The position numbers were made by a program, and so were the translations under genes. Shown here piece after piece: positions 6,924 to 43,083 of a stretch of DNA of 45,109 bases; within the stretch, counting starts at the first letter, position 1, and the number at the start of each line of letters is the position of its first letter. The notes beneath the pieces were generated by a model that was not told the DNA's origin, did no database searches, and saw only the letters and a program-made list of their open reading frames with translations. This DNA comes from Candidatus Yonathbacteria bacterium RIFCSPHIGHO2_02_FULL_44_14 (GTDB taxonomy: Bacteria > Patescibacteriota > Minisyncoccia > Phycocordibacterales > UBA1550), in NCBI GenBank assembly GCA_001823535.1, contig MHUT01000009.1, positions 1-45,109 on the forward strand. Direction: 5' to 3'.

Positions 6924-8159
6924 TTAGATTGGCAAATTTACCGGAGCCTCTGATTTTCGTGAAGGAATACGACCAAATGTTGGCGTTTGAGCTACCCCTC
7001 CCGGGAAATGGTATATGGTTGCGAGCTCCTCCGTTGTAAGCACAAACGGCTTCAATTTGCGCGGGGAATGGAACCATGAACGTTGCTTGTACGCCTCAAA
7101 CATTTCCTTACGCTTCTTTGTCCATCGAATGTCATTGAAGTCCTGCCATGGGTAATCTTTGCCAAATGTATTCGCGGTCAATGTGAACCCGTTTAAACTG
7201 CTACTTGTAAACGGGCGCAGGAGTCCGCCAAGCGCTTTAATATTGCTTGGGTGAAACTGCTCTTTTTTTACAAGATACACAGCGCGAATACCGCAATCAA
7301 AACCAAACTTACCCATGCTTCGCTCGATAGCTTTGATTATGTCGCGGTCTCCTTCGGTCATCATCATCATTTTAAAAGATGGTGCACCCTCCGGGGTCTT
7401 TTCGTTGCGCTTGGTAAGTTTATCGATAATAGCCTTTCCTTCGTCTTGCCAATTACCCATAGTGCCATCTGATTTATGATAACGCTTGCTTGCTGCTTGC
7501 ACAATGATCTGCATCCATATCTGCTCGCCCTTGCCGATCGAACCCAAATACTCAATGATGGAAGTCAGTGGATCAATTTTAAATTCTTCCTTCGGATCTT
7601 TATCGAGACCGTAGTCAACATAGGTCTTGATTGGATAAGGATCTGGCTTGCTCAAACCATACTCCGCACCAATGAGTGACCAGTCACCCTCCTTGCCGCG
7701 GTAGTCCACATAGCGAACATAATCTGGAACTTCATAAATTTCAACATCAGGATACTGGCTGTATAGTTGTGCTTCGATGACATTTTTATAAATCCATGGA
7801 GTGCGAATGAAAAATTTGATATGCCCCTCAATGGAAACCATTTCAAGCGAGGACCAATCTTTTACTTTTCCTCTCCATATTTTATCGAACCAAGTGCCAG
7901 TGGCTGCTTGATAAAGAGCATTGAGCACAATCTCCATTGCAAGCGGTGATTTATAAGTTTCTTTAGGAAGTTTTATCTCGAGGAGTATCCAGTTGATTTT
8001 GGCCATATGTCGCCCTTGTACATAGTGCATCCACTGATGCCAAAACATATAGCCGAGGAGTATTGGTCCCCAATAAGGAAACCACGAAAAAACCACAGTA
8101 AGGGTTGATACGGTCTGCTGATAGAGCCCCAAGAAATCCAGGGTCTGAAATAAACTCAT
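6924..8159 (-). CDS. Conserved hypothetical membrane-anchored protein
   Basis: 411-aa ORF with an N-terminal TM segment, EIKLPKE..PLAMEIVL and C-terminal EELATIYHFP. Resembles (from recall) CPR proteins related to N-terminal regions of VirD4/TraG-like ATPases. Confidence 0.6.
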   Translation of the reverse strand: MSLFQTLDFLGLYQQTVSTLTVVFSWFPYWGPILLGYMFWHQWMHYVQGRHMAKINWILLEIKLPKETYKSPLAMEIVLNALYQAATGTWFDKIWRGKVKDWSSLEMVSIEGHIKFFIRTPWIYKNVIEAQLYSQYPDVEIYEVPDYVRYVDYRGKEGDWSLIGAEYGLSKPDPYPIKTYVDYGLDKDPKEEFKIDPLTSIIEYLGSIGKGEQIWMQIIVQAASKRYHKSDGTMGNWQDEGKAIIDKLTKRNEKTPEGAPSFKMMMMTEGDRDIIKAIERSMGKFGFDCGIRAVYLVKKEQFHPSNIKALGGLLRPFTSSSLNGFTLTANTFGKDYPWQDFNDIRWTKKRKEMFEAYKQRSWFHSPRKLKPFVLTTEELATIYHFPGGVAQTPTFGRIPSRKSEAPVNLPI

Positions 8160-9391: not shown

Positions 9392-12181
9392 TTATTCTTT
9401 TATCACGATATTTATCAGCTTGTTTGGAACCACGATAATCTTCGAAAAAACCATCCCTTCCATCCATTTTTGCACTCCAGGGCGGGCTAGCGCCATCTCT
9501 TTTACCACATCTTCCTCTGTATCTCGAGATACAATAATCGTGTCGCGCAACTTTCCATTCACCTGCACAGCGACCGTCACTTCACCTTCAACACATTTGG
9601 CTGGGTCGGCTATTGGCCACGGTTCAAGGTGAATAGAATTTTTGTTACCAAGATCGCGCCACAGCTCTTCGGTAATATGTGGCGCAAATGGTGCGAGGAG
9701 CACGAGAAGGACTTCGAAATCATTCTTGGAAACAGTTTCTATTTTTTCCAATTCATTCAAAAGAATCATCAGCGATGAAATAGCAGTATTAAAATTAAAT
9801 TCTTCAATATCCTCACCTACTTTTTTGATGGTCTTGTGAAGTGCCACTTCTGCCCTCAACCCATCTTCTGTTTTTGAAACCTTTTCTTTTAGCCGCCACA
9901 CACGCTCAAGAAACCTGCGTGGACCAACGATGCTTTTTGTGCTCCATGCGACCGATTGTCCAAATGGACCCATGAACATTTCATACAAACGCATGGTGTC
10001 TGCGCCATACATAGAAACAATATCATCCGGGTTCACCACATTCCCCCAACGTTTGCTCATTTTGCGTCCATCTTCTGCAATAATAAGTCCGACATTTTGA
10101 AGTCGATTAAATGGTTCGTCGTAGTTTACAACACCTATGTCGTATAAAAATTTATGATAAAAACGCGCATAGATAAGATGGCGTGTTGAATGCTCGGCAC
10201 CCCCAACGTACATGTCCACCGGTGACCAATACTTTTCTTTTTCTTTATCAACAAGCATATTTGTATTGTGCGGATCAATAAACCGCAAATAGTACCACGA
10301 AGACCCTGCCCACTGTGGCATCGTGTTCGTCTCACGCTTGCCTACGTCACCACAATTTGGACACGGAACATTCACCCAGTCAGGAATACCCGCGAGTGGC
10401 GACTCTCCTGTTCCTGTTGGCTCGTAGGATTCCACCTCTGGCAAAACCACAGGCAAATCTTCTTCAGGGACAGGAACAACACCACACTTCTCACAGTGAA
10501 TAAGTGGAATCGGCTCACCCCAATAACGCTGGCGAGAGAACACCCAATCCTTAAGGCGATACTTGGTGACCCATCGTCCTTTTACGAAGTCAGTGATTTT
10601 CTTTTTTGCGTCTTCGTTTGGCGTGCCGTCAAACTGACCAGAATTTATTAGTCTGCCGTCATCAAGATACACTGATTGTTTTTTTACATCAGTCAGTTCA
10701 ATTAAGGCCTCTTTAACGAAATCAGTAACTTTTTCATGATTTAAGGCATCTTCAACTTTCATCTCAACAATACTCTCACCCTCCATAAGAGTTAGGGTGC
10801 TGGTATCAACACCTCCTACATGAAATAAAATATTACGTGTTCCGTCATCTTTATAACCAAAAGCTCCTATGTATTGTGCATCATCGTCTTTAATTTTAAG
10901 CAACAATTCTTCAAAAAGTTCTCTCTTCAGACAAGTCAGTTCATCTTCCCCATCTTCTGGACGTCCGCCAAAGGAGGAAATCATCCCTGGTCTCGAAGGA
11001 GCATTAGCATCTCTTTTTTGAAAAATAAATGTACCAGTGTTTGTTTCTAAAATTGCACCCACCCCCCGTATTTTTTTTATATCGTGAGCAACCACCCTTT
11101 TAATTGACAGCTCGAACTTCTTCGCAAATTCAAAATCCCTCTCATCGTGCGCAGGAACAGCCATTACTGCGCCAGTGCCATAGTGTCCAAGCACATAGTC
11201 CGCGACAAAAAGAGGAAGGTTCTCGTTATTTGCGGGGTTTATAACACTCACCCCTTCAATCTTCACTCCAGTTTTATCGCGACCTTCTGCAGTGCGCTCA
11301 ATTTCAGTGCGCGCTTTTGTTTCGGTGCGATACTTTTCAACTTCGCCCCAATTTGCAATCGACTCCTTCAACTCATCAATGAGTTTATGCTCCGGCGCAA
11401 GCACACAATATGTCGCACCAAAAAGCGTATCGAGGCGCGTCGTGAATACCGTGATTTTTTTCTCGCTTCCCTCGATAGCAAAATCAATTTCAGCGCCCTC
11501 GCTTCGACCAATCCAGTTTTTCTGTGCTTCTTTGATAGATACAGGCCAATCGAGTTTATCAATATCAGCAAGCATGCGATCCGCATAGTCGGTGATACGA
11601 AGTACCCACTGACGCATTGGTTTTTTCTCAATTGGGGTATCACAGCGTTCGCATTTACCATCTTCAAGATCTTCGTTCGCAAGGCCTGTCTGGCAAGTTG
11701 GGCACCAGTTAATCGGCTCATATGATTCGTACGCGAGCCCCTTTTTAAACATCTTCAAAAAAATCCATTGTGTCCATTTATAAAAAGTAGGATCCGTGGT
11801 GTTTATCTCGCGACTCCAGTCATAATCAAACCCAATCATCGAAAGTTGTTCCTTGTACCGTTTGGTATTTTTTTCTACAGCGACTCGGGGGTGTACTTTG
11901 TTTTTTATTGCATACTGTTCTGCGGGCAGACCGAAAGCATCCCATCCCATTGGATGAAGCACGTTGAATCCCTGCATGCGTTTCATACGAGAATAAATAT
12001 CAGTTGCGATATATCCCTTTGGATGCCCAACATGGAGCCCGTCCCCTGATGGATACGGGAACATATCGAGTACATATTTTTTTGGCTTCACAGAATTCTC
12101 GCCTGCGCTATAGACACCAGACGCGCTCCACACATCTTGCCATTTTTTTTCGATTACTTTGTGGTCGTACTTTTCAGACAT
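9392..12181 (-). CDS. leuS: Leucine-tRNA ligase with inserted NUDIX domain
   Basis: MFPYPSGDGLHVGH (HIGH), KMSKR (KMSKS), CP1 editing motifs (TTRLDT, GTGAVMAVPAHDERD). ATG at 12181. Confidence 0.97.
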   Translation of the reverse strand: MSEKYDHKVIEKKWQDVWSASGVYSAGENSVKPKKYVLDMFPYPSGDGLHVGHPKGYIATDIYSRMKRMQGFNVLHPMGWDAFGLPAEQYAIKNKVHPRVAVEKNTKRYKEQLSMIGFDYDWSREINTTDPTFYKWTQWIFLKMFKKGLAYESYEPINWCPTCQTGLANEDLEDGKCERCDTPIEKKPMRQWVLRITDYADRMLADIDKLDWPVSIKEAQKNWIGRSEGAEIDFAIEGSEKKITVFTTRLDTLFGATYCVLAPEHKLIDELKESIANWGEVEKYRTETKARTEIERTAEGRDKTGVKIEGVSVINPANNENLPLFVADYVLGHYGTGAVMAVPAHDERDFEFAKKFELSIKRVVAHDIKKIRGVGAILETNTGTFIFQKRDANAPSRPGMISSFGGRPEDGEDELTCLKRELFEELLLKIKDDDAQYIGAFGYKDDGTRNILFHVGGVDTSTLTLMEGESIVEMKVEDALNHEKVTDFVKEALIELTDVKKQSVYLDDGRLINSGQFDGTPNEDAKKKITDFVKGRWVTKYRLKDWVFSRQRYWGEPIPLIHCEKCGVVPVPEEDLPVVLPEVESYEPTGTGESPLAGIPDWVNVPCPNCGDVGKRETNTMPQWAGSSWYYLRFIDPHNTNMLVDKEKEKYWSPVDMYVGGAEHSTRHLIYARFYHKFLYDIGVVNYDEPFNRLQNVGLIIAEDGRKMSKRWGNVVNPDDIVSMYGADTMRLYEMFMGPFGQSVAWSTKSIVGPRRFLERVWRLKEKVSKTEDGLRAEVALHKTIKKVGEDIEEFNFNTAISSLMILLNELEKIETVSKNDFEVLLVLLAPFAPHITEELWRDLGNKNSIHLEPWPIADPAKCVEGEVTVAVQVNGKLRDTIIVSRDTEEDVVKEMALARPGVQKWMEGMVFSKIIVVPNKLINIVIKE

Positions 12182-12191
12182 TAAACATAGT

Positions 12192-12235
12192 ATAACAAAA
12201 CCCTCGTCTTTGCTCAAAGACGAGGGTTTTGTTAT
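12192..12235. terminator. Intrinsic terminator hairpin
   Basis: ataacaaaaccctcgtcttt..aaagacgagggttttgttat, downstream of the 12241-13227 gene. Confidence 0.75.
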
Positions 12236-33245: not shown

Positions 33246-33470
33246 AGGTGCAAAGCGACACTAGGCTCTCGGTCGCGGATTTGGATAGCCTCGCTGAGTA
33301 CGGCTCATCTAAGACTAGCGTGTGGTCACGAATCACTAAATATATTGCTTCGAGTACTCGCAATCTACGTAAGTGCTCGCGACCCCGCCTCGCCATTTCG
33401 TCTGCTGACGAAATATGGCTGTGGCCTCCACAACTAAAAAACGACGCGCAGGCGTCGTTTTTCTTTACGT
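33246..33470. repeat. tRNA-Ala-associated structured element (degenerate)
   Basis: Core ggtcacgaatcactaa..taagtgctcgcgacccc (33324-33386) resembles the Trp/Tyr cores; inverted tccacaa copy; hairpins. Confidence 0.65.
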
Positions 33471-33472
33471 TG

Positions 33473-33546
33473 TGGACCCGGGGAGAATCGAACTCCCTAC
33501 CTCCGGAGTGCAAAACCGGCGCTCTAGCCAAGTGAGCTACGGGCCC
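33473..33546 (-). tRNA. tRNA-Ala(TGC)
   Basis: Cloverleaf GGGCCCG/CGGGTCC with G3:U70, loop TT-TGC-AC, TTCGATT T-loop. CCA is not encoded. Confidence 0.95.
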
Positions 33547-34677: not shown

Positions 34678-34759
34678 GCCGGGATGGCGGAATTGGTAGA
34701 CGCACACGACTCAAAATCGTGCGGGGCAACCCATGAGAGTTCGATTCTCTCTCTCGGCA
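34678..34759 (+). tRNA. tRNA-Leu(CAA)
   Basis: GCCGGGA/TCTCGGC acceptor, CACGA-CTCAAAA-TCGTG, long variable arm. CCA is not encoded. Confidence 0.95.
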
Positions 34760-34769
34760 CAAAATAATT

Positions 34770-36663: not shown

Positions 36664-38082
36664 TTAATCTTGCGATAATCTGGAAAACCTATAATCATCA
36701 GGCTTTAATTTAATGTCCATCTCAAGTGTAGCCTGATATGATCCTAAACATGGGTCAATATGCTCTTTAATGTCTGATAGTTTTTCAAGCACTGGCTCAA
36801 TATCAAGCCCTTTTTGTCTCAAAAACCGCATCATTCGTAAAGCATGAGCCCATGCATCTCTCTCTTCAGCAATGTACTCTTCTCTTGCTTTCTCTAATTT
36901 GCTATTTTTTATAAGATAGTATTTTTTAACTTTAAGGGACTCTTTGACTTCCTGAGGGACCTCTAGATTACTAATTTGATCAATACTAGCGCTATTAAAC
37001 GCATGTTGTAGATTTATCACACCAGCCTCTTGTGTAGGCTCTGTCACCGAAAGTGACGACTGATTATCTACAATATATAGTTCTGTGCCGATATCTGAAA
37101 GTTTCTCAACTATTTCACTAATTTCCTCAGCTATCTCACTAGAGTGAGGTTTAAGACTTGCGAATTCTAGCGCCTGCATTAAACTGTAAGATTCTGTAAG
37201 AAGTTTTTTATAAGTAAATTTGCCTTTATATGAATCAGAGGAATAGTTATCCTGCCATGAGTGTGCAATCTCGTGAAAAAGACTTAGCATTTTACCTTTC
37301 TCAGTGATATTTCCATACCCAACCATTCTCTTACTTGGAGACTCAAAAAACTTTCCTGTAGACATGGACGCTCCTCCATAGTTTTTTAAATCAAAATCCT
37401 CCACCCCTGGTTCAAAATGAAAGTCACTAGGCAATAAAGCATCCAGATCAAGTGCCATACCACTTCTTGTATCCTGTATAATAAGACTAGCTCTTGTAAA
37501 TCTATATGTATTTGAATTAAATATTTGATTTTCTATGTGCTCATAAAGAATATTCTTGTCTCCATATTGCTTCATGGCGCGAGAAATTTCCTGTTTATTT
37601 ACACCATTATTTTCACTTTCATTTAAACTGGTTTCATACGGTTGCTTCTCTTTCCTAAAAAGACTTTTTTCAAAAAAACTTTCGAGATTCTCTCTTAATA
37701 TTTTTCGTTTTAGGAGCGTCGGAGCAAATTCATTTTTTTCTTTTTGTACTAAGGCATTAGTTGTAAAATCATCACGACCCTGCCCAAGTCTTTCTGGAGG
37801 TTTAATCCCTTGTGGAATAAGTTCTTTAAAAAAATCTCCAGCCTCATTGCTAAAATCCTTGAGAGAGGTGTATCTGCTTGTTATTTCCTTTGATGTTTCT
37901 GCGCGTAGGCCCCCTATAGTAGAAATTCCTATGGAGTTGAGAACTGGCTCCAAACTATCAAGAAGTTTATCTTTTAGTGACAGTGAGCTTAACTCAGAAC
38001 CTCTTTCTGTTGCCTTCTCGACATTACTAAAAGAGGGCTCAGGTGGCTTCGTATAATTGTTCAAATTATTGAAAGATTCCAT
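36664..38082 (-). CDS. Hypothetical zincin-like metallopeptidase, AT-rich
   Basis: LFHEIAH (HExxH) and EERDAW. TG-A-TATAAT lies 6 nt before the ATG at 38082. Confidence 0.65.
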   Translation of the reverse strand: MESFNNLNNYTKPPEPSFSNVEKATERGSELSSLSLKDKLLDSLEPVLNSIGISTIGGLRAETSKEITSRYTSLKDFSNEAGDFFKELIPQGIKPPERLGQGRDDFTTNALVQKEKNEFAPTLLKRKILRENLESFFEKSLFRKEKQPYETSLNESENNGVNKQEISRAMKQYGDKNILYEHIENQIFNSNTYRFTRASLIIQDTRSGMALDLDALLPSDFHFEPGVEDFDLKNYGGASMSTGKFFESPSKRMVGYGNITEKGKMLSLFHEIAHSWQDNYSSDSYKGKFTYKKLLTESYSLMQALEFASLKPHSSEIAEEISEIVEKLSDIGTELYIVDNQSSLSVTEPTQEAGVINLQHAFNSASIDQISNLEVPQEVKESLKVKKYYLIKNSKLEKAREEYIAEERDAWAHALRMMRFLRQKGLDIEPVLEKLSDIKEHIDPCLGSYQATLEMDIKLKPDDYRFSRLSQD

Positions 38083-38125
38083 ACACAAATTATATCATAA
38101 ACTAGGTTCAGTCCCGCTTCCGGCT

Positions 38126-38390
38126 TTCGAGTCCTCGTGGGCCTCGCAATGACAACAATGCCAGATGACTTTCAGTATCTGGCATTGTCATTGCGGGCCC
38201 ACGAGTCCGCGGTCCCGAGTTACTAAGTATTTTACCACGTTTCACTTGTAAAATCCTAAGTACTCGCGACCCCAGCTCGACTGTCGCCTTGCGACATGGC
38301 TCCGCTTTTCGAGTCCTCGACGCAAGCCAAGCAGTTGGCTTGCTTGGGCCCGCAAATGAAAAGCACCGCTTAAGCGGTGCTTTTCATTTG
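38126..38390. repeat. tRNA-Trp 3'-end mirror array
   Basis: Inverted copy 38126-38149, direct copy 38191-38205, interrupted inverted copy 38308-38355, and two long hairpins. Confidence 0.9.
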
Positions 38391-38461
38391 CGGGCCCACG
38401 AGGACTCGAACCTCGGTCTGCGCGTTTGGAGTGCGATATTCTACCACTGAACTATAGGCCC
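38391..38461 (-). tRNA. tRNA-Trp(CCA)
   Basis: GGGCCTA/TGGGCCC acceptor, G73, loop CT-CCA-AA, CGAGG-TTCGAGT-CCTCG. The anticodon stem is imperfect. Confidence 0.9.
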
Positions 38462-38501
38462 TTACGAATTCGAGTATATCAAAATTTACCTAAAAATGGA
38501 A

Positions 38502-39635
38502 TTATTTGTATATGCGTTTCATAAGAGGATTGAGGCGCGTCAAAATCTCATACGCGGAAGTACCTGAGCGCTCGGCAAGTTCACTCGCCAGTATTTCCTC
38601 TTTTCCCGAGAAGCCAATGAGCACCACTTCATCACCTACCTTCACGCGTGGGATTTGTGTGACATCAACGACAATCATGTCCATCGACACTCGACCCAAA
38701 ACTTTTGCGCGAGCACCACGCACAAGGACATCAGCATTGCTTGAGAGTAACCGCGGATACCCATGCCAGTATCCCACAGGGCAAACTGCGATGCGCATGA
38801 CATGTGCCGTCTTGTGCGTAAGGTCATAGCCAATTCCAGATCCTGCGGGAATTTCTTTAATTTCAGAAATAATTGTCTTCCAAGAAAGTGCTGGGCTAAG
38901 CGAAAAGCTTCCATTGAACACACGTTTTATCTCATCAGCAGTCCAAAAACCATAGAGCCCTGCACCAATACGCACCATATCAAAATGCGCATCCCTAAAA
39001 CCAAACACGCCACCCGTCGCGCACGCATGCGCAATCAGAGAAAACCCTGTACTCCGCAGTGCGGTTCTCCACACCACAAACTCAGCAATCTGCGATTCCG
39101 TAAACACTCGATTATTCACGTCCTTTGCTGACGCAAAATGTGTATAGAGCCCTGCGACTTGCACTTTGTTCTCTTTGAGAATCTTTAAAACCTGTGGTAC
39201 TTCTCGCAAAAGAAAACCTTGGCGATGCATCCCTGTGTCTATTTTGAGGTGAATAGGAATTTGCCTTGTGTTTGGTGTTTTTAAAAATGTTTGTAACCCG
39301 TCTATACTTGAAATAGTAAGATGAATTTTTTTGCGAAGCGCTTTTACAAACATTTCAGGAAGCGTGTACCCGAGAACGAGGATGGGCTTTTTCACACCGC
39401 TCTTTCGCAAAGCAAACGCTTCGACGAGCGAGTCAACTGCGAGCATATCAATACCGATTTTTTCGAGTTCAAGAGCAAACTCTGTCAAGTTATGGCCATA
39501 CGCATTAGACTTCACAATCCCCATTATTTGAACATTTTTGGGAACGAGTTTTCGAAAAGCGCGATAGTTCGCATGGATTGCTTTAGTGTCAATTTCAATC
39601 CAGGTGCGTAGCCCCATGTGTTCACTTTTCTTCAT
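38502..39635 (-). CDS. alr: Alanine racemase
   Basis: IVKSNAYGH (PLP Lys), HLKIDTGMHRQG, GYWHGYPR, GRVSMD. Confidence 0.97.
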   Translation of the reverse strand: MKKSEHMGLRTWIEIDTKAIHANYRAFRKLVPKNVQIMGIVKSNAYGHNLTEFALELEKIGIDMLAVDSLVEAFALRKSGVKKPILVLGYTLPEMFVKALRKKIHLTISSIDGLQTFLKTPNTRQIPIHLKIDTGMHRQGFLLREVPQVLKILKENKVQVAGLYTHFASAKDVNNRVFTESQIAEFVVWRTALRSTGFSLIAHACATGGVFGFRDAHFDMVRIGAGLYGFWTADEIKRVFNGSFSLSPALSWKTIISEIKEIPAGSGIGYDLTHKTAHVMRIAVCPVGYWHGYPRLLSSNADVLVRGARAKVLGRVSMDMIVVDVTQIPRVKVGDEVVLIGFSGKEEILASELAERSGTSAYEILTRLNPLMKRIYK

Positions 39636-39654
39636 GTAATGAATAGTATCATAA

Positions 39655-39694
39655 AAGTAAAAACCTCAAGTCATGTGATTTGAGGTTTTTACTT
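39655..39694 (-). terminator. Terminator after rpmG
   Basis: aagtaaaaacctcaa..ttgaggtttttactt. Confidence 0.75.
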
Positions 39695-39704
39695 AGATTT
39701 TTAA

Positions 39705-39863
39705 TTACTTCTTCGCCTCCTTGTGAACTGTGTGCTTACGGCAGGAGTTACAGAATTTATCGAGCTCAATTTTGCGCTCAACAAGCTTCTTGTTCTTGCG
39801 AGTCCAGTAATTTACTCGTTTACAGCTTTTGCAAGCGAGTTTTATAAGTTGGTCTTGTGACAT
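39705..39863 (-). CDS. rpmG: 50S ribosomal protein L33, zinc-binding type (absent from the ORF track)
   Basis: MSQDQLIKLACKSCKRVNYWTRKNKKLVERKIELDKFCNSCRKHTVHKEAKK. Confidence 0.95.
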   Translation of the reverse strand: MSQDQLIKLACKSCKRVNYWTRKNKKLVERKIELDKFCNSCRKHTVHKEAKK

Positions 39864-39905
39864 AGTTTTTTCATCCTACTACAAGCTGTGAAAAAAGGCA
39901 AGAAA

Positions 39906-40219
39906 TTGTGCGCCGGCGAATTAGCAAATTCGAGTCTTGGACTACAGGATTCGAATCCTTACAAAAGCCAACTGCTTGGCTTTTTCCCGACGCTACAAAA
40001 ATCGAAGCCCCATACTCTTTCGAGTATGGGGCTTGATTTCTTGTGCGCCGGGAAAGTCGGCCCCGAGTTACTAAATCGCTTCGCTCCTAAGTACTCGCAG
40101 CCCCGGCTCACTGTCGCCTTGTGACATGTTCCGCCTTTCGAATCCTTACGCAAGCAAAGCAGTTTGCTTGCTCCCGGCGCACAATTAAAAAACTCCTCAT
40201 TTGAGGAGTTTTTTAATTG
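39906..40219. repeat. tRNA-Tyr 3'-end mirror array
   Basis: Direct copies 39906-39916 and 40041-40054; interrupted inverted copies 39950-39998 and 40137-40184; two long hairpins. Confidence 0.9.
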
Positions 40220-40302
40220 TGCGCCGGGAAGGATTCGAACCTTCGAAGCCCGGAGGCGAGAGATTTACAGTCTCTTGTGATTGACCACTCCACCACCGAC
40301 GC
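40220..40302 (-). tRNA. tRNA-Tyr(GTA)
   Basis: GCGTCGG/CCGGCGC acceptor, A73, AGAGA-CTGTAAA-TCTCT, long variable arm. CCA is not encoded. Confidence 0.96.
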
Positions 40303-40306
40303 ATAT

Positions 40307-40362
40307 GTGAGCGAGCGTTTCGTTCCCCAGTCAGCAGACAGGGGAACGAAACGCTCGCTCAC
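40307..40362. repeat. Perfect 22-bp inverted repeat
   Basis: gtgagcgagcgtttcgttcccc / ggggaacgaaacgctcgctcac. Confidence 0.85.
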
Positions 40363-40395
40363 TCTAACATGTTTTTTATCTTGGTTCAAACAACC

Positions 40396-43083
40396 TTAGG
40401 TTACTGCTTTTGCGTTCACTCGTGACTTTGTCGTTACCTGCTTTTTCTCGACACGAATTGCAATTTCTCCTTTTTCAACAGAAACAAGGACACGACCCCC
40501 TTTAAGTACTCCCGAAGAAATCATAAGTGATGCTACTGGTGTCAAAATCTTTGTCTGAATCAAACGCTTGAGCGGGCGCGCTCCGTAGCGCGAATCATAT
40601 CCCTTCTCTGCGAGATACGTTAGCACCTCGGGCATAACATTGAGAGCAATCTCCTTTTCTGCGAGACGCTTTTTCACTATATCAACCTGAAGACCAACAA
40701 TGCTCTTAATAACCTCTGGTGACAAAATATCAAAGATAATTATTTCATCCAGACGGTTCAAGAACTCTGGACGGAAAAAATCCTTAAGCGACTCCATCAC
40801 GCGCTCTTTTGCATCAGAGTAATCTGCCTTGTCGCTTGCATGAGCGCCAAAGCCAATAGCCTGCATTTTGTCGATATGCTCTGAACCAATATTCGAGGTT
40901 AAAATGATAACCGTGTTTTTGAAGTTCACCACTCGACCCTTTGAATCGGTAAGGTGTCCGTTGTCCAGAACCTGTAGAAGAATGTTGAACACCTCTGGAT
41001 GTGCCTTTTCAATCTCATCAAAAAGAAGCACGGAGTACGGGCGATGACGCACAGTCTCGGTGAGATTACCACTCTCTTCGTGTCCAACATATCCAGGCGG
41101 CGAGCCGATAAGTTTTGAAACCGAATGTTTCTCCATATACTCGGACATATCCACACGCACGAGCGCTTTATCATCGTTGAACATAAATTGCGCAAGTGCT
41201 TTCGAAAGCTCTGTCTTCCCCACGCCTGTTGGACCAAGGAAGAGGAACGAACCGATAGGGCGGTTTGGGTCAGCGATGCCAGCGCGAGAACGCTTGATGG
41301 CATCCGCAACTTTTTGAATAGCATCCTTCTGTCCCACCACGCGCTTTTCAAGCTCTTCTTCCACGTGTGCAAGCTTCCCTGCTTCTTCCTCAAGCATCTT
41401 GGTAACGGGGATCCCAGTCCAGCGCGCTACAACCTCCGCAATGTCTTGCTCCACCACTTCCTCTTTCAAAATACGGCGGGATGACTGAAGTTTTTTCAAA
41501 CGTGCAACTTTTCCCGTAAGGTCTTTTTCAAAGCCCGGAATACGCCCGTAGCGAATCTCCGCGGCAAGAGCGAGGTCTGCCTTCATTTCCGCAGTCTCCG
41601 CCTCTAGGCGCGCGGTTTCAAGGCTTTTCTTAATAGCGCGAATATCTTGAACAAGCTCCTTTTCATTTTTCCATTTAATCTCAATTTCCTTGGTCTTTTC
41701 GCGAAGATCACCAATTTCTTTATCAATTTTTTTAGTGCGCGCTTTTGCATTCTTGCCCGCATCCCCTTCTATTGCTGATTCCTTCTTTAACGCCTCTTTT
41801 TCAATTTCAAGACGCATAATGCGACGATGAGCATCCTCAAGTACTGGTGGTTTGTTTTCGAGTGCGATACGAAGAGAAGATGCCGCTTCGTCTATTAGGT
41901 CAACTGCTTTGTCTGGGAGAAAACGGTCTGTAATGTAGCGACTTGAAAGATTCACTGCTGCCATTATTGCGTCATCAGTAATATGCACACCATGGAAAAG
42001 TTCGTACTTCTCCTTGAGTCCGCGTAGGATTGCAATTGCGTCTTCAAGAGATGGCTCGTTTACATGCACTGGTTGGAAACGCCTCGTAAGTGCTGGATCT
42101 TTTTCTATGTGCTTCTGATATTCACGGAGCGTTGTTGCGCCGATAGCGCGAAGTTCCCCGCGCGCAAGCGCGGGCTTCAACATGTTTGATGCATCCATTG
42201 ATCCTTCTGCAGCGCCAGCGCCGACAATAGTGTGAATCTCGTCAATAAAGAGAATAATCTTCCCTTCCGAGCGCTCAATCTCTTTCATAATTTTCTTCAA
42301 GCGGTCCTCAAATTCACCGCGATACTTTGTGCCTGCGATGAGCTGTCCAAGATCAAGAGAAACGAGTTCTTTGCCCTTGAGCGACTCTGGGACATCTCCT
42401 TTTGCCATACGAATAGCGAGCCCCTCAACGACTGCGGTCTTGCCTACTCCGGCTTCTCCGATGAGAATTGGATTATTTTTTGTCCGACGAGATAGGATTT
42501 GGATAATGCGACCCACTTCATTGTCGCGACCGATAACGGGGTCGAGTTTGTCTTGTGCGGCAAGCGAAGTTAGGTTGCGCGTGTATTTATAAACTGACTT
42601 CAGCTTCTTTGACGGCGTACTGTCGGTGATATTTTGCGTACGAAATTCCTCAAGTATGCGCATCACGCTCTCACGATCAATATTTTGGCGCGCCAAAAAT
42701 TCGCGCGCTTGACCTTCCACATCAAAGAGCGACAGGAATAGGTGCTCGCAGGAAATTTGTTCGTCCTTCATCCCCTCCGCAATACGTGGGGCAATCTCTC
42801 CAAGTATTTGTCCGAGCTCTGGAGTAAGGTAGAGCTGATATGCGGAGGCAACATTTTGAGCAGTTGTAGGCTCAATAAGATCAAGAATAGACTCGGCAAA
42901 TGTCACCGAATCCACATCGAGGCGATCAAGGATGGAAATAACGATGCTTTCATCATCAAGAACAAGCGCGGTAAGCAAATGCATGGGGCTCACATGATTC
43001 TGTCCACGTTCTACCGCAAGTTCATGCGCGCGGCGAATAATGTCGCGGGCTTTTGTAGTGAAGTTGTTAAATGGAGGCATCAT
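40396..43083 (-). CDS. clpB: ClpB/ClpC-type AAA+ chaperone
   Basis: Clp N-domain, [29 protein letters not shown], long coiled-coil M-domain, RPEFLNR, GARPL. Confidence 0.9.

What the first reader, a model, noticed from the sequence alone, without database searches (positions are those of the whole stretch)
39906..40230. tRNA-Tyr carries two stacked mirror units
The proximal unit (40041-40216) is intact and parallels the Trp unit. The distal unit (39906-40040) is shorter and decayed: it has an 11-nt direct copy, no core, and an inverted copy cccgacgctacaa with its 25-nt hairpin flipped. This polarity, freshest next to the gene, resembles serial addition at the tRNA 3' end. At the Trp locus the distal copy is likewise truncated and mutated.
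Basis: partly seen in the sequence, partly recalled or inferred. Interest (0 to 1): 0.85.

Follow-up and report, generated by a model that had tools for sequence, protein, structure and literature searches.

The report
Mobile RNA elements stacked behind tRNA-Tyr
Behind this tRNA-Tyr gene sit two successive insertions of a small, apparently undescribed mobile element of Parcubacteria that encodes a conserved folded RNA and carries a stretch complementary to the end of the gene it lands in.

Summary
Downstream of tRNA-Tyr lie an intact unit (40041-40218) and a decayed one (39906-40040).

In tRNA sense, each unit has these parts:
- a terminator hairpin;
- an inverted copy of the tRNA 3' end, split by a CUGC-loop hairpin;
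- a conserved core;
- a direct copy of the tRNA 3' end.

The core is a real structured RNA. It forms a three-way junction with 93.9% of cells paired, 27 of 28 pairs show compensatory change, and no Rfam family matches.

I found 190 cores in 122 Parcubacteria-type loci. They sit behind tRNAs of 38 different anticodons, behind tmRNA, and at the 3' ends of rplL and ftsZ. The inverted arm always matches the local gene.

A relative (Yonathbacteria UBA12043) has an empty tRNA-Tyr site, so the block is an insertion. At an rplL site the two gene-end copies differ at 13 of 18 codons, all synonymous, so the element brings a foreign copy.

Array mates are not each other's closest relatives. The gene-proximal unit scores higher in 20 of 24 two-unit arrays.

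Serial insertion with the newest unit nearest the gene is therefore supported, though not absolute. No enzyme gene accompanies the units. The mechanism is inferred: guided recognition by a trans-acting enzyme.

The parts
40220..40302 (-). tRNA-Tyr (GTA). It is the target gene. Its last 23 nt (T loop, T-stem 3' strand, acceptor 3' strand, discriminator) are the sequence mirrored in the units. CAA follows instead of CCA.
   Evidence: ARAGORN; Rfam tRNA 58.3 bits
40187..40214 (-). Proximal unit: terminator-type hairpin AAAAAACUCCUCA-AA-UGAGGAGUUUUUU. It is the centre of the 28+28-nt perfect palindrome.
   Evidence: Sequence; inverted repeat I1
40172..40186 (-). Proximal unit: inverted copy of the tRNA acceptor 3' strand plus CAA (AAUUGUGCGCCGGGA).
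   Evidence: 13 nt 100% complementary to 40041-40053 and to 40217-40229 (I1, I16)
40150..40171 (-). Proximal unit: hairpin GCAAGCAAA-CUGC-UUUGCUUGC. It splits the inverted copy at the acceptor/T-stem boundary. The CUGC loop is conserved in the family.
   Evidence: D1; CUGC in 53 of 93 hairpins found
40137..40147 (-). Proximal unit: inverted copy of the T loop and T-stem 3' strand (AAGGAUUCGAA).
   Evidence: D2, D8; complementarity statistics
40056..40139 (-). Proximal unit: conserved three-way-junction RNA core, the variant with a short distal hairpin.
   Evidence: Model R1, 61.3 bits, E = 2.7e-13; covariation; fold z = -6.3
40041..40055 (-). Proximal unit: direct copy of the tRNA 3' end (UUUCCCGGCGCACAA). 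It pairs with the inverted copy to close the unit.
   Evidence: D4; 13-bp closing helix in the minimum-energy fold
39998..40040 (-). Distal unit: its own terminator hairpin, different from the proximal one (stem 40005-40034).
   Evidence: Terminator scan; I5
39985..39997 (-). Distal unit: decayed inverted copy of the acceptor strand (UGUAGCGUCGGGA; plus strand tcccgacgctaca).
39963..39984 (-). Distal unit: splitting hairpin with an inverted loop (AAAAGCCAA-GCAG-UUGGCUUUU).
   Evidence: I6 and I10
39950..39960 (-). Distal unit: inverted copy of the T loop and T stem, intact (AAGGAUUCGAA).
39918..39949 (-). Distal unit: 32-nt remnant where the core should be. About 75 nt are deleted. The piece ACUCGAAUUUGCUAAUUCG may be the relic of the core's 3' strand.
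   Evidence: No model hit; alignment A6
39906..39917 (-). Outermost direct copy GCCGGCGCACAA. It abuts the flank that is homologous to the empty site in UBA12043.
39705..39863 (-). rpmG (ribosomal protein L33). In the relative it directly follows tRNA-Tyr. Here it is separated from the tRNA by two terminator-bearing units.
   Evidence: Pfam PF00471
38191..38390 (-). Intact unit behind tRNA-Trp (tRNA at 38391-38461). The core lies at 38208-38310. It is orthologous to the unit in UBA12043.
   Evidence: (94.6 bits)
38105..38190 (-). Truncated outer unit at tRNA-Trp: hairpin, mutated inverted copy, anti-T segment and the first ~15 nt of core.
33321..33472 (-). Short-arm variant of the unit behind tRNA-Ala (tRNA at 33473-33546). 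It has a 43-nt CUGC-loop hairpin, an 8-nt arm GUUGUGGA, the core at 33321-33429, and a 5-nt copy CCACA.
   Evidence: 83.9 bits

Best explanation
What it is. The two stacked units are two independent, successive insertions of a family of small (about 130-190 nt) elements. They carry no protein gene. They specialise on the 3' ends of conserved, highly expressed genes of Parcubacteria: mostly tRNAs, also tmRNA, rplL and ftsZ.

What each element carries:
- a copy of the 3' part of its target, so the gene stays intact;
- a terminator-type hairpin;
- a segment complementary to that target sequence (the 'mirror'), often split by a CUGC-loop hairpin at the acceptor/T-stem boundary;
- a conserved three-way-junction RNA read in the sense of the target gene.

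How arrays form. Insertion leaves a direct repeat of the gene end. The regenerated gene end remains a target, so a later element usually enters next to the gene and pushes the older one outward. There the older unit decays. In the distal Tyr unit the core is deleted, the arm is mutated and the hairpin loop is inverted.

What is shown: insertion, a family-wide structured RNA, target-matched arms, a foreign gene-end copy, independent origin of array mates, and a polarity trend.

What is inferred. Target choice is made by base pairing of the complementary segment with the target, either as RNA or as folded single-stranded DNA. An enzyme encoded elsewhere in the genome, and not identified, uses the conserved core as its handle. 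The crossover lies at one edge of the repeated gene end.
For: Insertion. The empty tRNA-Tyr/rpmG site in Yonathbacteria UBA12043 has a flank homologous to the sequence after the window's outermost copy. The same tRNA-Ala carries different element types in the two genomes.

Family size. Model R1 found 190 non-overlapping hits. 91 of 132 pattern hits have a same-strand tRNA ending within 450 nt upstream, and 20 more lie at contig edges. The targets are tRNAs of 38 anticodons plus tmRNA, rplL (L028, L035), ftsZ (L048) and an intron-containing tRNA (L006).

Structured RNA. 93.9% of cells are paired, against 71% in shuffles and 31-45% with slid partners. 27 of 28 pairs show compensatory change. 0 of 500 shuffles reach the observed values. 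A G.U pair is kept in 124 of 146 sequences, and the reverse strand scores 23 bits against 95.

Target-matched arm. The arm is 94% Watson-Crick to the adjacent gene end. At least 9 of 10 positions match in 32 of 76 units against their own tRNA, versus 50 of 5520 against other tRNAs.

Foreign copy. In L035 the two rplL ends encode the same 17 residues but differ at 13 of 18 codons, with no non-synonymous change.

Independent insertions and polarity. Array mates are nearest relatives in only one array. The proximal unit scores higher in 20 of 24 arrays, p = 0.0015.

No gene on board. No protein family recurs beside the units; the top clusters are LepA, UvrA, RbfA, ClpB and Ddl. The 28 ORFs of the window that I scanned against Pfam include no recombinase, transposase or reverse transcriptase.

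Real DNA. Independent assemblies are identical across the array.
Against: - No enzyme was found, so mobility is inferred from comparative anatomy and was not observed.
- No RNA-seq data could be found, so transcription of the units is unproven.
- Mismatches between the arm and the target show no G.U over A.C excess (9 versus 12). There is therefore no direct sign of selection for RNA-level pairing.
- Short-arm variants have only 8-10 nt of complementarity and a 4-5-nt repeat. A single uniform mechanism is not established.
- The crossover could not be placed at either edge of the repeat (8:7:7).
- Polarity has exceptions: 4 of 24 arrays are reversed and 3 longer arrays are mixed.
- Model score is only a proxy for age.
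Confidence: 0.72

Rival explanations
1. Satellites of protein-only integrases. The units would be minimal attP-bearing elements, or decayed ends of larger islands, moved by a tyrosine integrase that recognises the tRNA T arm. The inverted copy and the RNA would be accessory, for example regulatory.
For: - The direct repeat runs from the T loop to the 3' end of the tRNA or tmRNA, as in classical T-loop integration sites.
- The element restores the gene end.
- Tandem accretion at tRNA genes is typical of integrative islands (my knowledge of the field).
Against: - No integrase lies beside any of about 150 chains of units.
- The repeats enclose only 130-190 nt.
- Targets include rplL, ftsZ and non-tRNA sequences that lack a T arm.
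- 38 different tRNA anticodons would demand very loose protein specificity.
- The matched inverted arm and the strongly conserved RNA are left unexplained.
Confidence: 0.12
2. Single-stranded-DNA transposon derivative, like the gene-less IS200/IS605 derivatives (PATEs). The hairpins and the complementary segment would act as folded DNA. The segment would pair with the cleavage site as the IS608 guide does. A trans-acting HUH/Y1 transposase would insert the element 3' of the matched sequence. The core would be the right end, possibly doubling as a guide-RNA scaffold.
For: - Insertion lies directly after a sequence that the element can pair with.
- The element's own 3' end repeats that sequence: 4-5 nt (CCACA, GACA) in short-arm units.
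- The hairpin loop CTGC is conserved while its stems vary.
- The structure is strand-specific.
- No protein gene is on board.
Against: - No TnpA or TnpB gene was seen.
- No Rfam transposon-associated RNA family matches.
- The long diverged rplL copy carried by the element and the 12-23-nt repeats are unlike IS200/IS605.
- In this family the pairing segment lies 3' of the hairpin, not 5'.
Confidence: 0.12
3. Host-serving RNA genes in tRNA 3' trailers. These could be tRNA-like or spacer-derived small RNAs, or processing or termination modules. They would stay matched to the neighbouring tRNA by gene conversion and would not be mobile.
For: - The RNA structure is under clear purifying selection.
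- The orthologous Trp units of two genomes differ mainly by compensatory changes inside the core.
- The closing helix copies the acceptor/T-stem stack of the neighbouring tRNA.
- Every unit brings a terminator.
Against: - Presence and absence, and different element types, occur at the same tRNA in related genomes.
- Decayed copies are stacked behind intact ones.
- An xenologous rplL end is carried along.
- Units occur behind protein genes.
- Chimeric units exist (L033).
Confidence: 0.04

Closest known systems
Integrative genetic elements at tRNA/tmRNA 3' ends (tyrosine-integrase islands; T-loop and 3'-end sublocations; tandem islands)
   Same: The target is the 3' part of tRNA and tmRNA genes. 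The element carries a replacement copy of the gene end. The gene end forms direct repeats. Several elements pile up at one gene.
   Different: These units are only 130-190 nt with no integrase. Each carries an additional inverted copy of the target and a conserved structured RNA. The family uses dozens of different targets, including protein genes.
IS200/IS605 elements and their gene-less derivatives (PATEs), with guide-based cleavage-site recognition and TnpB/IscB guide RNAs
   Same: Both are small hairpin-rich non-autonomous units. The target is recognised (here presumed) by base pairing with a segment inside the element. Insertion lies next to the paired sequence. A structured RNA sits at one end.
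   Different: Pairing here is 8-23 nt instead of 4. The element holds a long copy of the target. No TnpA or TnpB gene and no match to the known RNA families was found.
IS110/IS1111 bridge (seek) RNA recombination
   Same: A mobile element encodes a folded RNA of about 100-180 nt that holds sequence complementary to its insertion site, so the target is in principle programmable.
   Different: No DEDD recombinase gene was found. Complementarity is one long, sometimes split, stretch outside the core rather than two internal loops. Donor and target here share the same sequence.
Integron cassette arrays
   Same: Both are ordered arrays in which new units enter at the proximal end. Each unit carries an imperfect palindrome that could fold as single-stranded DNA.
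   Different: There is no integrase or attI site and no cassette ORFs. The palindrome is built from the target gene's own end.
Dada DNA transposons of eukaryotes; tRNA homing of type V-K CRISPR-associated transposons
   Same: Both use multicopy or conserved small-RNA genes as safe sites. Dada carries a piece of the target gene. CRISPR-associated transposons carry a guide that matches a tRNA gene.
   Different: Those belong to different domains of life or use different machinery, and they encode their own proteins.

Membership tests
Any Rfam 15 RNA family (including group I/II introns, transposon-associated RNAs, HEARO, ribozymes, tRNA-like RNAs) | Match to the family covariance model at or near its gathering score | tested here: not met
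   Only the four tRNAs pass in the window. With E up to 10 over 37900-40500, only spurious microRNA-hairpin hits of 32 bits or less against cut-offs of 57-130 overlap the units; the core itself is unmatched.
Tyrosine-integrase integrative element | Integrase gene inside the element, next to the attachment site | tested here: not met
   The repeats enclose 130-190 nt without an ORF. The recurring neighbour ORFs are housekeeping genes. The 28 window ORFs scanned against Pfam include no integrase.
Tyrosine-integrase integrative element | Direct repeats made of the 3' part of the target gene, with the element supplying a functional replacement | tested here: met
   The rplL copies differ only at synonymous sites.
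MITE (miniature inverted-repeat transposable element) | Family-wide terminal inverted repeats derived from a parent transposon, with a fixed-length target-site duplication | tested here: not met
   The inverted arms differ from locus to locus and match the local gene. Repeat length varies from 4 to about 70 nt. One repeat is xenologous, not a duplication.
IS200/IS605 / PATE | TnpA (Y1 HUH) or TnpB/IscB gene in the element or the genome | tested here: inconclusive
   None was found in about 800 kb of loci or in the window. Whole genomes could not be searched.
IS200/IS605 / PATE | Subterminal hairpins, and an internal segment that pairs with the flanking cleavage site | tested here: inconclusive
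   Hairpins and target-complementary segments are present. Their order and length differ from IS608.
IS110 bridge-RNA system | DEDD/serine recombinase gene adjacent to the RNA; RNA with separate target-binding and donor-binding loops | tested here: not met
   There is no adjacent ORF. The consensus structure has two plain hairpin arms and an external complementary stretch.
Group II intron (terminator-targeting class C) | Six-domain ribozyme with domain V | tested here: not met
   The core is about 100 nt, and no Rfam intron family matches.
The new element family itself (model R1) | Core three-way junction: GNC/GN'C helix with a hairpin, then GGUC-G-CGAR-YAC...GUR-A-YUCG-U-GACC | tested here: met
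   Proximal Tyr unit 61.3 bits, Trp 94.6, Ala 83.9. The distal Tyr and distal Trp units give no hit, because their cores are lost.

The most novel reading that the evidence does not exclude
The units are the non-coding, target-defining module of a new nucleic-acid-guided insertion system. An enzyme encoded once elsewhere in these tiny genomes binds the conserved three-way-junction RNA (or its folded DNA). It uses the adjacent 8-23-nt complementary segment to find the matching sequence in a gene's 3' end. It then recombines the element in while swapping in the element's own copy of that gene end. Target choice would be programmable simply by changing the arm and the carried copy.
Probability: 0.3. 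Interest if true: 0.95.

Novelty: new variant of a known kind. Interest (0 to 1): 0.8.

Why it matters
Small elements that insert at tRNA gene ends are known. Three features together are not known to me: no protein gene, a strongly conserved structured RNA, and an arm complementary to whichever gene the element occupies. I found nothing like it in Rfam, in annotated phage and plasmid collections, or in six full-text literature searches.

The family is abundant in Parcubacteria. Three of the four tRNAs in this window carry it, and there are 190 copies in 122 sampled loci. It therefore shapes tRNA loci and their transcription units in these reduced genomes. Here it places two terminators between tRNA-Tyr and rpmG.

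If target choice is by base pairing, this would be a very compact natural system for directed insertion. It would also be a new case of a mobile element that repairs the gene it interrupts.

At the least, it adds a new RNA family and explains recurrent palindromes and assembly breaks behind tRNA genes in genomes of the candidate phyla radiation.

Tried and rejected
- Rfam at gathering and permissive thresholds gave no family for the core. Rfam on ten further loci found only tRNAs and one group I intron.
- Two patterns scanned over viral contigs gave no hits. BLAST against phage and plasmid records gave no match.
- No RNA-seq runs were listed for the window or for L056.
- A search for a recurring neighbour protein found only housekeeping clusters. 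Pfam scans of 28 window ORFs found no mobility enzyme.
- I tested for a pseudoknot between the CUGC loop and the GCAG/GGAG junction. There is no covariation, so I rejected it.
- I looked for a G.U excess in arm-target mismatches as a sign of RNA pairing. None was seen.
- I tried to map the crossover edge from outer units of arrays. The result was indecisive, 8:7:7.
- Simple snap-back copying from the terminator as the origin of the mirror is rejected. The arm is interrupted by a conserved hairpin, and at rplL and in L096 it matches sequence 45-70 nt away from the hairpin.
- Chance or assembly artefact is rejected.
- Six literature searches, including searches on sequence strings, found no description.
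- An ITPase-like ORF between units in L020 was considered as cargo or as the enzyme. It is a housekeeping-type gene and is not recurrent.

Full report
**Observation.** tRNA-Tyr(GTA) lies on the minus strand at 40220-40302. All neighbouring genes are co-oriented: clpB, tRNA-Tyr, rpmG, alr, tRNA-Trp. Read in tRNA sense, the tRNA end ...GGUUCGAAUCCUUCCCGGCGCA-CAA is followed by these parts:
- an A/U-flanked hairpin (40187-40214);
- the exact reverse complement of the acceptor 3' strand (40172-40186);
- a hairpin with a CUGC loop (40150-40171);
- the reverse complement of the T loop and T stem (40137-40147);
- an 84-nt core (40056-40139);
- a direct copy of the tRNA end (40041-40055).

A second, shorter unit follows (39906-40040). 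It has a different hairpin, a mutated inverted copy and an inverted hairpin loop. About 75 nt of core are missing, and it ends in a 12-nt direct copy.

The 11-mer TTGTGCGCCGG has four perfect matches in the window, all within this stretch. Contigs from independent metagenome runs reproduce the array without a difference. tRNA-Trp has an intact unit plus a truncated outer one. tRNA-Leu(CAA) has none.

**The core is a structured RNA family.** No Rfam family matches it. A pattern from the two window cores found three genomes: Candidatus Yonathbacteria (two) and Nomurabacteria (one).

An alignment of 26 cores gave a consensus in which 18 of 28 pairs show compensatory change. The covariance model R1 finds three cores in the window and 190 non-overlapping hits over all loci.

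On 146 distinct sequences the numbers are as follows:
- 93.9% of cells are paired, against 71% in shuffles and 31-45% with slid partners;
- 27 of 28 pairs have changes on both sides;
- 0 of 500 shuffles reach the observed values.

A G.U pair is kept in 124 of 146 sequences. The reverse strand of the Trp core scores 23 bits against 95. The folded strand is therefore the tRNA-sense strand.

The shape is a three-way junction with these elements:
- a closing helix made of the complementary arm and the direct copy;
- a short GNC/GN'C helix carrying a variable hairpin;
- a long helix GGUC-G-CGAR-YAC ... GUR-A-YUCG-U-GACC with a bulged A and a variable tip.

Whole units fold with z-scores of -6.3 (Tyr) and -8.2 (Trp), and the fold includes the closing helix.

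**Where the units sit.** Of 132 pattern hits, 91 have a same-strand tRNA ending within 450 nt upstream, mostly 85-135 nt. Another 20 lie at contig edges. The targets are tRNAs of 38 different anticodons plus tmRNA. Further targets are the last codons of rplL (L028, L035), the end of ftsZ (L048), a tRNA with a group I intron (L006) and some unidentified sequences.

The inverted arm always matches the local gene. It is 94% Watson-Crick to the adjacent gene end. At least 9 of 10 positions match in 32 of 76 units against their own tRNA, versus 50 of 5520 against other tRNAs.

There are two architectures:
- Long-arm units, as at Tyr and Trp, have a separate terminator, a 20-23-nt arm often split by the CUGC hairpin exactly at the acceptor/T-stem boundary, and a 12-23-nt direct copy.
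- Short-arm units, as at the window's tRNA-Ala, have a 43-nt CUGC-loop hairpin directly behind the tRNA, an 8-10-nt arm and a 4-5-nt copy such as CCACA.

**They are insertions and they move.** In Yonathbacteria UBA12043 (L001), which shares the tRNA order Ala-Leu-Trp-Tyr with the window, tRNA-Tyr is followed at once by the rpmG leader. The window's outermost direct copy abuts the homologous flank. The 313-nt block (39906-40218) is therefore inserted.

The other two loci also differ between the two genomes:
- At tRNA-Ala the two genomes hold different element types.
- At tRNA-Trp they share one orthologous unit. The tRNA, hairpin and arm are identical over about 165 nt, and the differences are confined to the core and are mostly compensatory. 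Only the window has the outer remnant.

At the rplL site in L035 the gene end occurs twice. Both copies encode EALKAKLEEAGAKVTLK*. They differ at 13 of 18 codons with no amino-acid change. Both were therefore shaped by selection as real gene ends in different lineages, so one copy travelled with the element. This rules out a simple target-site duplication. It fits the logic of integrative elements that restore the gene they interrupt.

No protein family recurs next to the units. The commonest neighbours are LepA, UvrA, RbfA, ClpB and Ddl. Pfam scans of 28 window ORFs found no recombinase, transposase or reverse transcriptase. The units are therefore non-autonomous.

**Stacking and polarity.** Thirty-three chains hold two or more cores. 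After removing chains interrupted by another tRNA and duplicate sequences, 24 two-unit arrays remain. The unit next to the gene has the higher model score in 20 of them (p = 0.0015). Three longer arrays are mixed.

Array mates are each other's closest relatives in only one array (L024). Otherwise tens of units from other loci are closer. In the window the two Tyr units likewise have unrelated terminator and splitting hairpins. Arrays therefore grow by repeated independent insertion, usually at the regenerated functional gene end. Outer copies decay.

The exceptions fit insertion into an outer copy of the gene end, or faster decay of some inner units. Examples are L009, L076, L083 and L111, and L032 and L068, where a decayed unit lies inside an intact one.

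**Mechanism.** The shown parts are listed above. The mechanism of insertion is inferred.

The complementary arm is better preserved against the gene end (94%) than the outer direct copy is (82%). At rplL and in L096 it pairs with the 5' edge of the repeated segment, 45-70 nt from the hairpin. It is therefore not a by-product of snap-back copying. It marks one edge of the exchanged segment.

The variety of targets argues against protein-only recognition. The most economical reading is recognition by base pairing, using the conserved core as the handle for a trans-acting enzyme.

Three things remain undecided:
- whether the active form is RNA or folded single-stranded DNA;
- whether the enzyme is a recombinase, an HUH transposase or something else;
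- at which edge of the repeat the crossover lies.

The relevant tests were uninformative. There is no G.U excess in arm mismatches. The crossover test gave 8:7:7. No RNA data exist. A side effect in the window is that two terminator-type hairpins now separate tRNA-Tyr from rpmG.

**Comparison with known systems.** The family shares gene-end targeting, gene repair and tandem accretion with tRNA/tmRNA-integrating islands. It lacks the integrase and adds an arm and an RNA. It shares hairpins and presumed pairing-based site choice with IS200/IS605 derivatives, but the geometry and the repeats differ and no TnpA or TnpB was found. It shares the idea of an element-encoded target-complementary RNA with IS110 bridge RNAs, but not their architecture or their adjacent recombinase.

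I found no description in Rfam 15, in the phage, plasmid or viral collections, or in six literature searches.

**Verdict.** The thing itself is an apparently undescribed family of RNA-bearing, target-mirroring mini-elements of Parcubacteria, and its insertion mechanism is open.

Noticed in passing
window 33321-33546 (-): tRNA-Ala(TGC) also carries a unit of the same family, a short-arm variant. It has a 43-nt CUGC-loop hairpin, an 8-nt arm GUUGUGGA, a core scoring 83.9 bits, and a 5-nt copy CCACA. Three of the four tRNAs in the window are occupied; tRNA-Leu(CAA) at 34678-34760 is not.
   Followed up: yes
window 38191-38461 vs L001 4830-5125: The orthologous Trp units of the two genomes are 100% identical across the tRNA, terminator, arm and splitting hairpin (about 165 nt). 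They differ at about 12 positions inside the core, mostly as compensatory pairs. This mosaic pattern suggests core exchange between units or unusually fast structure-preserving change.
   Followed up: partly
family-wide; window 40160-40163 and 39972-39975: The tetraloop CUGC of the arm-splitting or terminator hairpin is conserved (53 of 93 hairpins found) while the stems vary freely. In the decayed distal Tyr unit the loop is inverted to GCAG. It shows no covariation with the GCAG/GGAG junction of the core. Its role is unknown.
   Followed up: partly
L033 around the tRNA-Pro(TGG) unit: This is a chimeric unit. Its complementary arm and an adjacent pseudo-3'-half belong to tRNA-Gly(TCC), but the direct copy after the core is the tRNA-Pro end. 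This suggests recombination between units at the T-loop region.
   Followed up: no
L006 4331-4534 (+): A group I intron (Rfam 58.6 bits) interrupts a tRNA that ARAGORN misses. A unit of the family sits behind that tRNA.
   Followed up: no
L020 1222-1836 (+): A 204-aa ITPase/Ham1-like ORF lies between decayed units and an intact unit behind tRNA-Tyr. It is flanked by pseudo-copies of the tRNA end. It may be a gene trapped within an array.
   Followed up: partly
L008, L042, L046: Units sit behind an unidentified sequence ending ...GAUACCGCACCACAAA. Neither ARAGORN nor Rfam recognises it. It may be an unusual or intron-bearing tRNA, or another small RNA.
   Followed up: partly
window 40217-40219, 38388-38390, 33470-33472, 34761-34763 and most loci: These tRNA genes do not encode CCA. 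The discriminator base is very often followed by CAA or CA, also at unoccupied genes.
   Followed up: no
window 40307-40362: A 26-bp near-perfect hairpin lies between clpB and tRNA-Tyr (GUGAGCGAGCGUUUCGUUCCCC...). It is probably the clpB terminator. It is unrelated in sequence to the unit hairpins.
   Followed up: no
window 9392-12217 (-): The leucyl-tRNA synthetase ORF carries a NUDIX domain hit (residues 383-491) right after the editing domain. This is an unusual insertion.
   Followed up: no
window 36664-38088 (-) and 6924-8159 (-): Two large ORFs (474 and 411 aa) have no Pfam match. The first starts just after the truncated outer Trp unit.
   Followed up: no
L001 1153-1248 (-): The unit behind tRNA-Ala in UBA12043 has a divergent core (29 bits) with the same layout but different helix sequences (GUUCUUAG...CUUAGAAAC). 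The family is therefore broader than model R1 and the search patterns capture.
   Followed up: partly
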